NCBI RefSeq assembly: GCF_024298765.1
Contig: NZ_CP101210.1
Source: Escherichia coli
GTDB lineage: Bacteria; Pseudomonadota; Gammaproteobacteria; Enterobacterales; Enterobacteriaceae
Reading direction: 5' to 3' (one strand)
Length of the DNA: 64,000 nt
The notes beneath the pieces are model-generated. The model worked only from the letters and a program-made list of their open reading frames with translations, had not been told where the DNA came from and ran no database searches. Of this stretch, positions 452-2,848 are shown one piece after another (position 1 is the first letter of the stretch; each line of letters starts with the position of its first letter). The translations under genes were made by a program, and so were the position numbers.

Positions 452-2848
452 ATGCACGAAAAGAACATCGCCCTGCTTTGTGATGAAGCCGACCGACTTT
501 TGCAACTGAACATTAATCTGCTCCGGCAAATGGTTGAGGAGCCAGATGTGTTATCTGACAGTAAGAACGAAAACAGACTGCTTTTTGATAAACAGAAAGC
601 ACTGAAAAGAATTGAGGAGCTGGAGGGCGAACAAATCAAAACCGCCCGCAGGGAGATGGTGCTGGCTGTTGTCGGCACGATGAAAGCAGGCAAATCAACC
701 ACCATCAACGCCATTGTGGGGCAGGAAATTCTGCCTAACCGTAACCGCCCCATGACCTCTGTACCGACGCTCATCCGCCACGTTCCCGGAAAAACTGAGC
801 CGGTTCTCCATCTGGAACATATTCAGCCTGTCCGCAATTTATTAATCACACTGCAGGAAAAACTCGCCACCCCGGCAGGACAGCAGGTCGCACAGACCCT
901 GCAGCAAACCGGGGATACCCGCGAACTGCTGGATATTCTGACGGATGATGGCTGGCTCAAAAATGAATACCACGGGGAGGAGGAAATCTTTACCGGACTG
1001 GCATCGTTAAACGATCTGGTTCGTCTTGCTGCGGCAATGGGGACTGAATTTCCTTTTGATGAATACGCAGAAGTGCAGAAACTGCCGGTGATCGACGTGG
1101 AATTCAGCCATCTGGTGGGGATGGATGCATGCCAGGGAACACTCACACTGCTGGATACCCCCGGCCCTAATGAGGCCGGACAACCGCAGATGGAAGTGAT
1201 GATGCGGGATCAACTGCAGAAAGCCTCTGCGGTTCTGGCTGTGATGGATTACACCCAGATGAACTCAAAAGCGGATGAAGACGTCCGTAAAGAGCTTAAT
1301 GCCATTGCTGACGTATCAGCCGGCCGCCTGTTTGTACTGGTCAATAAATTTGATGAGAAAGACCGCAATGGCGATGGGGCAGATGCCGTACGCCAGAAAG
1401 TTCCGGCAATGCTGAACAGCGATGTGCTGCCCGCCTCCCGCGTTTATCCCGGATCCTCACGCCAGGCATACCTGGCTAACCGTGCGCTTCATGAGTTACG
1501 GAAAAACGGAACCCTTCCTGTTGATGAAGCCTGGGTCGATGATTTTGTCAGGGAAGCCTTCGGTCGCATGAAAAAAGATTACGTCTGTAAAGACAGCGAA
1601 CTGGCAACTGAAGGGGCGACAGACCTGTGGGAAGGCTCACTTATCGATCAACTGATAACGGAAGTCATACTGAGTTCACACTCCAGAGCGGCGGCACTGG
1701 CGGTTGATTCTGCTGCCGCAAAACTGATGCAGAATGCAGAAAATGTCAGCGAATATCTGTCATTACGCCATCAGGGGCTGCAGCAAAGCATTCAGTCACT
1801 GCAGGCGAATATCACCAGCCTGCTTGCGGATATCCGGAAAATCGCGGACTGTCAGGAGCAGGTGACCGCTGATGTCAGAATGGCCATGGAGGAGATCGAT
1901 GCCAGAACCCGGGAATTACTGACGGGGGTCTGCACCTCACTGGAAGAGGAGCTGAATGACTATTTCAGAACTGGTAAACGCAAAGAACAGCAAATGTTGG
2001 AGGAAGAAGACGCAGAACAACGAAGGTCCCGGTCCGGATTATGGGGAAAGATTTCTCAATGGTCCGGTATCAACAACCCGGGCTGGGAAGATTACAGGAA
2101 ACGAGACTTTGACCCGGAAAACCCCGAGATAACACTAAATAATCGTAGGGAAGCAATTGAATATATAGAGGAAATTGAGTCAACTGTGACCAGCCTGCAC
2201 CGTGAGGCTGAAGCACAGTTCCGGCCTGAGCTGGAGAAAATCGTCAGCGGGATTGAAACAGGTTTTCGTGGCACGGCCCTGTACGCCACAGAAAACATTG
2301 CCGGTCGCATCAATGCCCGCCTGGAGGATGAGGGCTTTACCGTAAAAATCAGTTTTCCGGCAGTCAGTCAGTTACAGACCCGGCTCGCGGTAAAAACAAA
2401 TCTGAGTGCGCTTATGGAGGAAAGAACGGAGACCGTCACCCGTCGCCGTCGGCAGAGTGGCGTATGGGGAACCGTTTGTCGATGGTTTGGCACCAGTGAC
2501 CTGGGCTGGGAAAACTATGACGAGGATGTGAGTCGCAGCGTGATCAATATCAACAAGGTCAGAGAGGAAGTTATGTCACTGACCCGGGCATATTTCGGGG
2601 AGCTGCAGGCATCCATTGAGCAGGATATTAACCAGCCCGTCCGCCAGGAAATCGATGCCTTTTTCTGCGCATTCAGGGAGAAAGTTGAACAACTGCGTAA
2701 CACGCTGATTCAGAGCTCTGAAGATCATAAACGCGATCAGCAGGCACAGGAACGGCTTACCGGGAGACTTCAGGCATTAAATGAAAGGGTTCCTGAGCTC
2801 ATTACTGACAGTAAGGCGCTGAGGGAAGAGCTGGAGACAATGCTGTGA
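452..2848 (+). CDS. Dynamin-like GTPase (bacterial dynamin-like protein family), 798 aa
   Basis: P-loop GTMKAGKST (G75-S82, nt 674-697), LLDTPGPNE switch motif, NKFD G4 motif, long helical C-terminal region; RBS AGGAAGG at 439-445. Confidence 0.85.
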   Translation: MHEKNIALLCDEADRLLQLNINLLRQMVEEPDVLSDSKNENRLLFDKQKALKRIEELEGEQIKTARREMVLAVVGTMKAGKSTTINAIVGQEILPNRNRPMTSVPTLIRHVPGKTEPVLHLEHIQPVRNLLITLQEKLATPAGQQVAQTLQQTGDTRELLDILTDDGWLKNEYHGEEEIFTGLASLNDLVRLAAAMGTEFPFDEYAEVQKLPVIDVEFSHLVGMDACQGTLTLLDTPGPNEAGQPQMEVMMRDQLQKASAVLAVMDYTQMNSKADEDVRKELNAIADVSAGRLFVLVNKFDEKDRNGDGADAVRQKVPAMLNSDVLPASRVYPGSSRQAYLANRALHELRKNGTLPVDEAWVDDFVREAFGRMKKDYVCKDSELATEGATDLWEGSLIDQLITEVILSSHSRAAALAVDSAAAKLMQNAENVSEYLSLRHQGLQQSIQSLQANITSLLADIRKIADCQEQVTADVRMAMEEIDARTRELLTGVCTSLEEELNDYFRTGKRKEQQMLEEEDAEQRRSRSGLWGKISQWSGINNPGWEDYRKRDFDPENPEITLNNRREAIEYIEEIESTVTSLHREAEAQFRPELEKIVSGIETGFRGTALYATENIAGRINARLEDEGFTVKISFPAVSQLQTRLAVKTNLSALMEERTETVTRRRRQSGVWGTVCRWFGTSDLGWENYDEDVSRSVININKVREEVMSLTRAYFGELQASIEQDINQPVRQEIDAFFCAFREKVEQLRNTLIQSSEDHKRDQQAQERLTGRLQALNERVPELITDSKALREELETML

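What the first reader, a model, noticed from the sequence alone, without database searches (positions are those of the whole stretch)
2021..2518. Internal duplicated Arg-rich Trp/Gly motif in the C-terminal half of the dynamin-like protein
Two copies of a ~25-residue motif occur ~140 residues apart: RRSRSGLWGKISQWSGINNPGWEDY (nt 2021-2096) and RRRRQSGVWGTVCRWFGTSDLGWENY (nt 2441-2518). The shared pattern is a basic run followed by SG-[LV]-WG, a tryptophan, then GWE-[DN]-Y. Basic and aromatic repeats embedded in the helical stalk region are plausible membrane-binding paddle elements or an interaction interface; this is not a feature I recall for canonical bacterial dynamin-like proteins.
Basis: seen in the sequence. 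Interest (0 to 1): 0.45.

Follow-up and report, generated by a model that had tools for sequence, protein, structure and literature searches.

The report
Trp/Arg tip motif in dynamin-like GTPase
The two Arg/Trp/Gly motifs are real, but they differ: the second is a conserved signature at the tip of a predicted beta-hairpin in a dynamin-like GTPase that sits in an operon with a phospholipase, while the first is a swappable cassette in a disordered loop found in only some Escherichia alleles. Together they look like a membrane-binding tip, which has not been tested.

Summary
Observation confirmed. RRSRSGLWGKISQWSGINNPGWEDY (aa 524-548) and RRRRQSGVWGTVCRWFGTSDLGWENY (aa 664-689) lie in ORF 452-2848. 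The self-alignment scores 111 against 33.7±5.5 for shuffles.

The protein is a BDLP-fold dynamin-like GTPase, a 34%-identical paralogue of K-12 RdcA/CrfC. It is first in an operon with an RdcB/YjcZ-like protein and a patatin phospholipase, on the aspV island. The operon occurs in 2612 of 5426 complete E. coli genomes.

The two copies are not equivalent.
- **Motif 2** is a family signature. It is near-invariant in 26 dynamin+YjcZ+patatin loci from many genera. AlphaFold2 puts it at the tip of a long beta-hairpin.
- **Motif 1** lies in a disordered loop (pLDDT <50). It is found only in some Escherichia alleles, on an ~85-nt cassette with sharp borders. A second, unalignable cassette is about as common.

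In other genera this loop is K/R-rich with a clustered hydrophobic or aromatic patch. In the soluble two-gene RdcA orthologues the loop is deleted, and the basic run and first Trp of motif 2 are lost.

Best reading (inferred, untested): the two elements form a peripheral membrane-binding tip. It is analogous to a dynamin paddle but built differently. A protein-docking or purely structural role is not excluded.

The parts
452..2848 (+). Dynamin-like GTPase gene (798 aa), a paralogue of K-12 rdcA/crfC/yjdA
   Evidence: ORF. Pfam Dynamin_N scores 66.9 bits (cutoff 27). NCBIfam CrfC equivalog scores 566.7 bits, below its 1146 cutoff. Identity to K-12 RdcA is 34%. The AF2 model has pLDDT 86.6. Foldseek best hits are BDLP, SynDLP, IniA and mitofusins.
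653..1486 (+). G domain (about aa 68-345) with intact G1-G4 motifs
   Evidence: Invariant columns across 98 homologues are G75, G80, K81, S82, T102, D235, P237, G238, N298 and D301. Secondary structure.
1688..2842 (+). Helical neck/trunk: H413-444, H447-507, H510-527, H565-626, H700-759, H763-797
   Evidence: DSSP on the AF2 model.
2021..2095 (+). Motif 1, RRSRSGLWGKISQWSGINNPGWEDY (aa 524-548)
   Evidence: Sequence. pLDDT is below 50 for aa 530-549. A weak short helix at aa 532-537 appears in the truncated model. Found only in Escherichia alleles.
2009..2092 (+). Loop-1 DNA cassette: about 85 nt that cannot be aligned with the alternative E. coli allele, with sharp borders
   Evidence: DNA alignment A3. 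Protein differences between alleles concentrate in aa 520-560. The motif-1-type cassette is in 1484 genomes and the alternative cassette in 1427, of 5426.
2033..2125 (+). Loop 1 (aa 528-558): disordered, ending in the conserved DFDP anchor
2126..2137 (+). Beta-strand aa 559-562 (EITL), which pairs with the hairpin
   Evidence: The strand is present in the full model. It persists in the aa 500-720 construct, where the hairpin strands are the only other strands.
2417..2548 (+). Long beta-hairpin (E656-667 and E686-699) with a short helix at its tip
   Evidence: pLDDT is about 72-80.
2441..2518 (+). Motif 2, RRRRQSGVWGTVCRWFGTSDLGWENY (aa 664-689), the family signature; aa 671-678 (VWGTVCRW) forms the tip helix
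   Evidence: Per-position conservation in 26 three-gene loci: R667 24, W672 25, G673 25, C676 24, F679 23, G685 26, E687 24, Y689 25. Motif HMM scores.
2845..3750 (+). RdcB/YjcZ-like gene; its start overlaps the dynamin stop by 4 nt
   Evidence: Pfam YjcZ 239.5 bits. RefSeq annotates it as 'diguanylate cyclase regulator RdcB family protein'.
3747..4817 (+). Patatin-like phospholipase gene; its start overlaps the preceding stop by 4 nt
   Evidence: Pfam Patatin 89.8 bits. The gene is present in 26 diverse three-gene loci.

Best explanation
The ORF encodes a BDLP-fold dynamin-like GTPase of the RdcA/CrfC family. It belongs to a distinct subfamily that is always followed by an RdcB/YjcZ-like gene and a patatin phospholipase gene.

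**Motif 2.** Its helical trunk ends in a small three-stranded sheet. The long beta-hairpin of that sheet carries motif 2 at its tip: an Arg run followed by a Gly-flanked Trp/Phe mini-helix.

**Loop 1.** Next to the hairpin base, a 30-50-residue disordered K/R-rich loop emerges that contains a clustered hydrophobic or aromatic patch. In this Escherichia allele the patch is a near-copy of motif 2, which is motif 1.

**Proposed mechanism (inferred, not shown).** The Arg runs bind anionic lipid head groups and the Trp/Phe residues insert at the membrane interface. The two elements would then act as a peripheral membrane-binding tip. This corresponds functionally to the paddle of BDLP or DynA, but is built from a beta-hairpin finger plus a flexible loop. 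It would bring the otherwise soluble dynamin/RdcB-like/patatin set to the inner membrane, where the lipase substrate is.

**Within motif 2.** The second half (W..GW[ED].Y) is probably structural. The first half (RRRR..WG..C) and loop 1 are the subfamily-specific functional part.

**Motif 1.** As a sequence it is a lineage-specific, recombining cassette, not a conserved element.
For: **Shown by tool results**
- The repeat is significant.
- The fold is dynamin/BDLP-like: Foldseek E 5e-14 to 2j69, and G1-G4 motifs invariant.
- Motif 1 is disordered and motif 2 sits at a hairpin tip.
- Strand 559-562 persists when the G domain is removed, so it pairs with the hairpin. The end of loop 1 therefore sits at the hairpin base.
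- Motif 2 is near-invariant in 26 three-gene loci from Pantoea, Erwinia, Pseudomonas, Gallionella, Paraburkholderia, Allochromatium and others.
- In 49 two-gene RdcA/RdcB loci, W672 becomes R (11 of 11 sampled), C676 becomes S or A, and the basic run is lost. W678, W684, G685, W686 and Y689 are kept.
- Loop 1 averages 45 aa in three-gene loci. Its best 11-residue Wimley-White interfacial energy averages -2.5 kcal/mol, and it is more clustered than shuffles in 17 of 26 loci. In two-gene loci the loop is about 15 aa with +2.05 kcal/mol.
- None of the three operon proteins has a TM-like segment; the maximum KD19 is 1.52.

**From the literature**
[quoted passage not shown] - The DynA paddle is two lysines flanking FFF at the stalk tip, and it is needed for liposome binding and phage defence (PMC12998192).
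Against: - No membrane-binding experiment exists for this protein.
- I had no model coordinates. Exposure, orientation and the distance between the two motifs are inferred from secondary structure and chain topology only.
- The three-gene versus two-gene contrast is essentially one phylogenetic split. All two-gene loci are Enterobacteriaceae orthologues, so it is not many independent observations.
- Motif 1 varies even within Escherichia: W545R, W531L and W537L variants occur.
- The alternative cassette lacks Trp altogether, which argues against a strict sequence requirement there.
- Hydrophobic moments of the mini-helices are modest (0.25 and 0.42).
- The RdcA-type tip keeps four aromatic residues although RdcA is soluble.
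Confidence: 0.45

Rival explanations
1. The hairpin tip and loop 1 form a protein-docking surface, not a lipid-binding one. They would bind the RdcB-like partner, the patatin lipase (holding it inactive or activating it), or a membrane protein, as RdcA docks onto the MASE1 domain of DgcE.
For: - RdcA binds RdcB and the membrane-integral MASE1 domain (PMC6510439).
- The full motif co-occurs with the patatin gene.
- Conservation of exact residues (G673, C676, T681, D683) is tighter than generic membrane anchors usually need.
- Hypervariable loops are typical of conflict interfaces.
Against: - The loop-1 cassette can be swapped with no linked change in the partners. In L085 the RdcB-like protein is 300/301 identical and the patatin is identical at 334 of the 335 residues present (its product is 21 aa shorter); this is a metagenome contig.
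- All four combinations of loop-1 and motif-2 alleles exist, including in genome-derived sequences.
- The composition (Arg run plus Trp/Phe) is that of an interfacial membrane binder.
Confidence: 0.25
2. The motif is mainly structural. The Trp/Gly residues build and cap the beta-hairpin and pack it on the trunk. Loop 1 is an unconstrained linker, and its resemblance to motif 2 in this allele is a neutral by-product of a past duplication or conversion.
For: - The W..GW[ED].Y half is kept in both subfamilies regardless of partners.
- Loop 1 is disordered and highly polymorphic.
- An HMM of the first half of motif 2 does not match the loop 1 of other genera significantly: 13 of 200 shuffles reach the observed mean.
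Against: - The subfamily-specific half (RRRR, W672, G673, C676) is near-invariant across distant genera, yet lost in the RdcA orthologues.
- The hydrophobic residues of loop 1 are non-randomly clustered in 17 of 26 lineages, and the loop is retained at 35-54 aa. Neither is expected for a neutral linker.
Confidence: 0.15
3. The tip elements mediate self-assembly of the dynamin, for example tip-to-tip or tip-to-G-domain contacts in an oligomer or a closed state.
For: CrfC forms homo-oligomers (PMC6374313). Dynamin-like proteins use the stalk and tip for assembly (general knowledge of the superfamily).
Against: RdcA/CrfC oligomerises even though it lacks loop 1 and the first half of the motif. 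Nothing here bears directly on assembly.
Confidence: 0.1

Closest known systems
E. coli K-12 RdcA (YjdA/CrfC) with RdcB (YjcZ)
   Same: Same protein family over the full length: 34% identity, and the NCBIfam CrfC model aligns aa 1-797. The gene order is the same, with an overlapping RdcB/YjcZ gene. The W..GW[ED].Y half of motif 2 is shared.
   Different: The score is below the equivalog cutoff (566.7 against 1146). RdcA lacks loop 1, the Arg run, W672 and C676. It has no patatin gene. It is a core gene next to proP, not island cargo. RdcA is soluble and acts on DgcE and the beta-clamp.
Nostoc punctiforme BDLP (2J68/2J69) and its paddle
   Same: Best structural match (Foldseek E 5e-14). Both have a G domain plus helical neck and trunk, with a hydrophobic element at the trunk tip.
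   Different: Sequence identity is about 14%. The global TM-score is only 0.24-0.27, partly because of conformational state. The BDLP paddle is helical and Leu/Phe-based. Here there is a beta-hairpin finger plus a disordered basic loop, rich in Trp and Arg. The isolated tip module has no PDB match (best E 0.5).
Bacillus subtilis DynA D1 paddle (K360, F363-365, K367)
   Same: Basic residues flank aromatic residues at the stalk tip. That element is shown to be needed for liposome binding and phage defence (PMC12998192).
   Different: DynA is a two-headed fusion dynamin with no RdcB-like or patatin partner. There is no sequence similarity in the tip.
LeoA/LeoBC ('Eleos') dynamin defence system
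   Same: Bacterial dynamin-like GTPases carried on islands and linked to defence.
   Different: Only a weak PADLOC LeoBC hit (18.9 bits, E 1.6e-4). The partner genes are different.
CBASS CapV-type patatin effectors
   Same: A patatin phospholipase acting as the likely membrane-directed effector in an island operon.
   Different: The NCBIfam CBASS_lipase score is 18.3 against a cutoff of 200. No cyclase or nucleotide sensor is present in the operon.

Membership tests
Dynamin superfamily (bacterial dynamin-like protein, BDLP/mitofusin type) | Large G domain matching Dynamin_N, with G1 (GxxxxGKS/T), G2 Thr, G3 DxxG and G4 N/TKxD | tested here: met
   Pfam Dynamin_N scores 66.9 bits against a cutoff of 27. 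G75, G80, K81, S82, T102, D235, G238, N298 and D301 are invariant in 98 homologues.
Dynamin superfamily (bacterial dynamin-like protein, BDLP/mitofusin type) | Helical neck and trunk following the G domain, with the BDLP-like fold | tested here: met
   The AF2 model has pLDDT 86.6 and pTM 0.78. Foldseek hits are 2j69 (5e-14), SynDLP, IniA and MFN1/2, all at probability 1.00. TM-scores are low (0.2-0.3) over the full length.
Dynamin superfamily (bacterial dynamin-like protein, BDLP/mitofusin type) | Membrane binding through a tip paddle, and lipid-stimulated GTPase activity | not testable with these tools
   Only composition and predicted position are available.
RdcA/CrfC equivalog (NCBIfam NF007368) | Score at or above the curated equivalog cutoff | tested here: not met
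   566.7 bits against a cutoff of 1146, so this is a paralogue and not the orthologue.
RdcA/CrfC equivalog (NCBIfam NF007368) | Two-gene rdcA-rdcB locus in the core genome | tested here: not met
   An RdcB-like gene follows, but with an added patatin gene. The operon lies on an island with an integrase, antirestriction and CbtA/YeeU genes. K-12 has the two-gene locus next to proP.
RdcA/CrfC equivalog (NCBIfam NF007368) | N-terminal beta-clamp-binding motif 41-QLALP (Q41 essential) | tested here: inconclusive
   The query reads 41-NRLLF-45 at the same residue numbers and lacks the Gln. BLAST did not align this stretch. Motif from PMC6374313.
Eleos (LeoA/LeoBC) defence system | Significant match to the LeoA or LeoBC models, with the paired gene architecture | tested here: not met
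   The only hit is PADLOC LeoBC at 18.9 bits, E 1.6e-4. The partner genes gave no Leo hits.
CBASS patatin effector (CapV) | Match to the CBASS lipase model, with an adjacent CD-NTase | tested here: not met
   18.3 bits against a cutoff of 200. The operon has no cyclase.
Dynamin + YjcZ + patatin three-gene operon (unnamed; noted in PMC12922286) | Collinear, overlapping dyn, YjcZ-like and patatin genes | tested here: met
   Window coordinates are 452-2848, 2845-3750 and 3747-4817. The same order is found in 26 loci from other genera.
Dynamin + YjcZ + patatin three-gene operon (unnamed; noted in PMC12922286) | Full tip signature [RK]RRxxG.WG..C.[WF]F.T.DWGWE.Y (defined in this work) | tested here: met
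   The query scores 52.7 on the motif HMM. The three-gene loci average 45.3 and the two-gene loci 14.6. The query has L684 where 23 of 26 have W.

The most novel reading that the evidence does not exclude
The dynamin/RdcB-like/patatin operon is an uncharacterised membrane-acting anti-phage (abortive-infection type) system. Its Arg/Trp hairpin finger binds the inner membrane and licenses the phospholipase. The sharply bounded, roughly 50:50 dimorphic loop-1 cassette (motif-1 type against FAFFHDIF type) is a specificity or counter-defence determinant kept by balancing selection and recombination.
Probability: 0.15. Interest if true: 0.7.

Novelty: new variant of a known kind. Interest (0 to 1): 0.45.

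Why it matters
About half of complete E. coli genomes carry this dynamin/RdcB-like/patatin operon (2612 of 5426). Its function is unknown. A 2026 transcriptome paper reports it among the most strongly induced genes in lysogens and suggests phage defence.

This work gives the operon a concrete set of residues to mutate:
- the Arg run R664-667;
- W672, C676, W678 and F679;
- loop 1.

It also gives a natural control. The soluble K-12 paralogue RdcA lacks exactly these features. Together these make the operon's mode of action directly testable.

If the tip does bind membrane, it would be a dynamin paddle built from a beta-hairpin rather than helices. The two-allele loop cassette is a small, clean case of localised hypervariability inside an otherwise 93-100% conserved gene.

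Tried and rejected
1. **Recent intragenic duplication or conversion.** Rejected as recent. The two copies share only 64% DNA identity. A 5-codon core (TTA TGG GGA AAG ATT) is identical to the motif-2 allele of P0090-type genes (P about 0.002 from the gene's codon usage). That hints at an old DNA-level copy, but the test is post hoc.
2. **Motif 1 as an ancient sequence repeat across the family.** Not supported. An HMM of the first half of motif 2 against loop 1 of 24 non-Escherichia loci is not significant (13 of 200 shuffles). Profile-profile comparison of the two halves gives probability 79.6% with the query included and only 45.6% (E 2e-4, 58 columns, same register) without it; controls give about 3%. 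This is suggestive only.
3. **Loop-1 alleles related by a frameshift.** Rejected. The cassette DNA itself cannot be aligned, and the flanks are sharp and in frame.
4. **Known defence system.** PADLOC gave only weak LeoBC and phospholipase-effector hits.
5. **Structural match for the isolated tip module.** Foldseek against the PDB found nothing meaningful (best E 0.5).
6. **Sequence search of the PDB.** Only the P-loop region matches BDLP.
7. **The 90%-clustered protein search.** It returned only E. coli alleles above 92% identity. These were useful for allele analysis, not for diversity.
8. **A MAFFT --auto run.** It timed out and was rerun with faster settings.
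Full report
**Observation**

Window 2021-2518 (+) translates to a stretch that begins RRSRSGLWGKISQWSGINNPGWEDY and ends RRRRQSGVWGTVCRWFGTSDLGWENY. Both lie in the 798-aa ORF 452-2848, at aa 524-548 and 664-689. A regex scan of all six frames finds this pattern nowhere else in the window.

Local alignment of aa 481-650 against 651-798 scores 111. Shuffled sequences give 33.7 ± 5.5, and 0 of 500 reach the observed score. The alignment runs on beyond the motif. The duplication is therefore real and far above chance. At the DNA level the copies are only 64% identical, so it is not a recent intragenic event.

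**What the gene is**

- The N-terminal half matches Pfam Dynamin_N at 66.9 bits.
- The whole protein aligns to NCBIfam's CrfC model, but at 566.7 bits, well under the 1146-bit equivalog cutoff.
- It is 34% identical to K-12 RdcA/YjdA/CrfC.
- The next two genes overlap it and each other by 4 nt. They encode a YjcZ/RdcB-family protein (239.5 bits) and a patatin-like phospholipase (89.8 bits).
- RefSeq annotates the trio as 'dynamin family protein', 'diguanylate cyclase regulator RdcB family protein' and 'patatin-like phospholipase family protein'. It lies in an island with an integrase, antirestriction, DUF932 and CbtA/YeeU genes.
- The island ends at a tRNA-Asp gene at 16618-16694.
- The operon is present in 2612 of 5426 complete E. 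coli genomes.
- PADLOC does not recognise it as a known defence system.
- A 2026 paper notes this operon on PAI-CFT073-aspV as strongly induced in lysogens and calls it a putative dynamin defence system (PMC12922286).

**Homologues**

An exhaustive search of 50%-identity representatives gave 2160 relatives at E ≤ 1e-3 and 447 at E ≤ 1e-30. About 110 are full length at 28-41% identity.

Motif 2 turns out to be a family signature. An HMM built from it scores above 30 in about 45 representatives. It is recognisable in degenerate form (…WG…FF…DWGYE.Y) in most of the others.

Motif 1 is different. It is detected only in Escherichia 797-798-aa alleles and truncated relatives. A 93%-identical 794-aa E. 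coli allele reads NSAQPRERNAFAFFHDIFGTGNQHDRM at that site.

A scan of one genome per species returned 80 loci. They fall into two classes:
- 26 three-gene loci (dynamin + YjcZ + patatin), from Pantoea, Erwinia, Pseudomonas, Gallionella, Paraburkholderia, Budvicia, Serratia, Allochromatium and others;
- 49 two-gene loci (dynamin + YjcZ), all Enterobacteriaceae RdcA/RdcB orthologues.

The motif-2 HMM score averages 45.3 in the first class and 14.6 in the second.

Per-position counts in 26 three-gene sequences are R666 23, R667 24, W672 25, G673 25, C676 24, F679 23, D683 24, G685 26, W686 22, E687 24 and Y689 25. In 11 sampled two-gene sequences W672 is always R, C676 is S or A, and the Arg run is gone. 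W678, W684, G685, W686 and Y689 are kept.

So the second half of the motif is common to the whole family. The first half is specific to the patatin-linked subfamily. This contrast is essentially one phylogenetic split, not many independent events.

**Loop 1**

In the three-gene loci the site of motif 1 is a 31-54-aa K/R/E-rich insertion. It ends in a conserved DFDP anchor. It contains a short hydrophobic or aromatic patch, for example SLWGGFFKGWT, LGGIFRAFAGI, GFFGTALASFL or FGAFFSPFFNL.

| Class | Mean loop length | Best 11-residue Wimley-White interfacial energy | More clustered than shuffles (p<0.05) |
|---|---|---|---|
| Three-gene (26) | 45.5 aa | -2.51 kcal/mol | 17 of 26 |
| Two-gene (11) | 15.1 aa | +2.05 kcal/mol | 0 of 11 |

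(All values.)

Sequence similarity of these loops to motif 2 is not significant outside Escherichia (13 of 200 shuffles). What is conserved is a property, not the motif.

Profile-profile comparison of aa 495-648 against 649-798 gives 79.6% probability with the query included. Without it the value is 45.6% (E 2e-4) over 58 helix columns in the same register, and controls give about 3%. An ancient duplication of a loop-strand-helix unit is possible but not established.

**Allelic structure in Escherichia**

Differences between E. coli alleles pile up in aa 520-560. One allele (P0003) differs from the window protein at 31 positions, 28 of them in that bin.

The DNA alignment shows identical flanks and an ~85-nt segment that cannot be aligned, at window 2009-2092.

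- The motif-1-type cassette occurs in 1484 genomes: 281 at ≥99% identity and 1144 at 90-95%.
- The alternative cassette occurs in 1427 genomes, nearly all at ≥99% identity.
- Some genomes carry both, because they hold more than one copy of the operon.

Within the motif-1 type, the Trp residues vary (W545R, W531L, W537L). The cluster P0002, which holds 6762 member sequences, and E. albertii both read GRE instead of GWE.

All four combinations of loop-1 type and motif-2 allele exist, which indicates recombination between sites 140 codons apart.

A cassette swap in an otherwise window-like background leaves the RdcB-like protein 300/301 identical. The patatin is identical at 334 of the 335 residues present, but its product there is 21 aa shorter. 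That locus is a metagenome contig, so a chimeric assembly cannot be excluded.

Motif 1 matches the other E. coli motif-2 allele (RRRRQSGLWGKICGAFGTSDWGWETY) better, at 15 of 25 residues. They share an identical 5-codon core that includes rare codons (P about 0.002, post hoc). This hints at an old DNA-level copy.

**Structure**

AlphaFold2 with a 98-sequence alignment gave pLDDT 86.6 and pTM 0.78. Foldseek places the model with BDLP (E 5e-14), SynDLP, IniA and mitofusins.

The C-terminal half runs as follows:
- H413-444, H447-507 and H510-527;
- loop 528-558, with pLDDT below 50 at aa 530-549, which covers motif 1;
- strand 559-562;
- H565-626;
- coil 627-655;
- strand 656-667;
- short helix 671-678 (VWGTVCRW);
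- strand 686-699;
- H700-759 and H763-797.

Motif 2 is therefore the tip of a long beta-hairpin. Its Arg run ends the first strand, and WENY starts the second.

A second prediction covered aa 500-720 alone, with 38 sequences (pLDDT 76.6). It keeps strand 559-562 together with the hairpin. These are the only strands in that construct, so they must pair. The model also gives motif 1 a short, low-confidence helix at aa 532-537. This puts the end of loop 1 at the base of the hairpin that carries motif 2.

From helix lengths and chain connectivity I infer that both elements sit at the distal end of the trunk, the position of the BDLP paddle. I could not inspect coordinates, so this is inference. 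The isolated tip module has no PDB counterpart.

**Mechanism**

None of the three operon proteins has a TM-like segment, yet the effector is a phospholipase.

In B. subtilis DynA, two lysines flanking FFF at the stalk tip are the experimentally defined paddle. That paddle is required for phage defence (PMC12998192).

K-12 RdcA is reported as soluble (PMC6510439). CrfC is described as lacking a typical membrane-binding motif (PMC6374313). RdcA lacks exactly loop 1 and the basic and first-Trp half of motif 2.

The best-supported reading is that the hairpin finger and loop 1 together form a peripheral, electrostatic-plus-aromatic membrane-binding tip. I give this a confidence of about 0.45.

The rivals are:
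- a protein-docking surface, for the RdcB-like protein, the patatin or a membrane protein (0.25);
- a mainly structural role, with a neutral loop (0.15);
- a self-assembly contact (0.10).

**Context**

Neighbours of the three-gene loci include a MazE/PIN pair and a WYL protein, an SNF2/ResIII helicase, a NERD-UvrD helicase, type I HsdM, DUF927 and YagK/YfjJ. This is consistent with mobile-island or defence-island cargo, but it does not prove a defence function.

**Verdict**

- The two copies are unequal. One is a conserved, previously undescribed tip signature of a widespread dynamin subfamily. The other is an allele-specific cassette in a hypervariable loop.
- This is a new variant of a known kind (a dynamin-like paddle), of moderate interest.

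Noticed in passing
window 2009-2092: The loop-1 coding segment exists as two unalignable cassettes with sharp borders and near-equal frequency in E. coli: 1484 against 1427 of 5426 genomes. The rest of the gene is 93-100% identical between alleles. All four combinations of loop-1 type and motif-2 allele occur, which indicates recombination.
   Followed up: partly
window 2476-2478 (Cys676): The Cys inside the tip helix of motif 2 is conserved in 24 of 26 three-gene loci. It is replaced by Ser or Ala in all sampled RdcA-type proteins. There is no obvious reason for a conserved exposed Cys in a cytoplasmic protein.
   Followed up: no
window 572-586 (aa 41-45, NRLLF): At the residue numbers where K-12 CrfC has its beta-clamp-binding motif 41-QLALP, this paralogue reads NRLLF. 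The ending is clamp-motif-like, but the essential Gln is missing.
   Followed up: no
window 2500-2502 (Leu684): The window allele has Leu where 23 of 26 three-gene homologues and all sampled RdcA-type proteins have Trp (DWGWE). Other E. coli alleles have Trp here.
   Followed up: no
window 2845-2848 and 3747-3750: The three genes overlap by 4 nt at each junction (GTG and ATG starts inside the preceding stop region). This suggests translational coupling. The same overlaps recur in most three-gene loci of other genera.
   Followed up: partly
window 16618-16694; 24843-24919; 28269-28463: A tRNA-Asp gene at about 16.6 kb probably marks the island's integration site (aspV), which matches the 'PAI-CFT073-aspV' name used in PMC12922286. 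A second tRNA-Asp, plus tRNA-Ala and tRNA-Ile, lie in what looks like an rRNA operon.
   Followed up: no
L084 1629-2501 (E. coli metagenome contig with the 794-aa allele): In this copy of the locus a 290-aa gene with small-GTPase hits (MMR_HSR1, weak RsgA_GTPase, faint Dynamin_N) lies about 220 nt upstream of the dynamin gene. The copy matching the window has a 144-aa hypothetical gene there instead (L086, L001).
   Followed up: no
E. coli O157:H7 chromosomes (hits H37-H41): Partial matches (83-87% coverage, about 90% identity) to the motif-1-type cassette are annotated as 'hypothetical protein'. They may be remnants of a second, decayed copy, because O157:H7 also carries the alternative cassette in an intact dynamin gene.
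   Followed up: no
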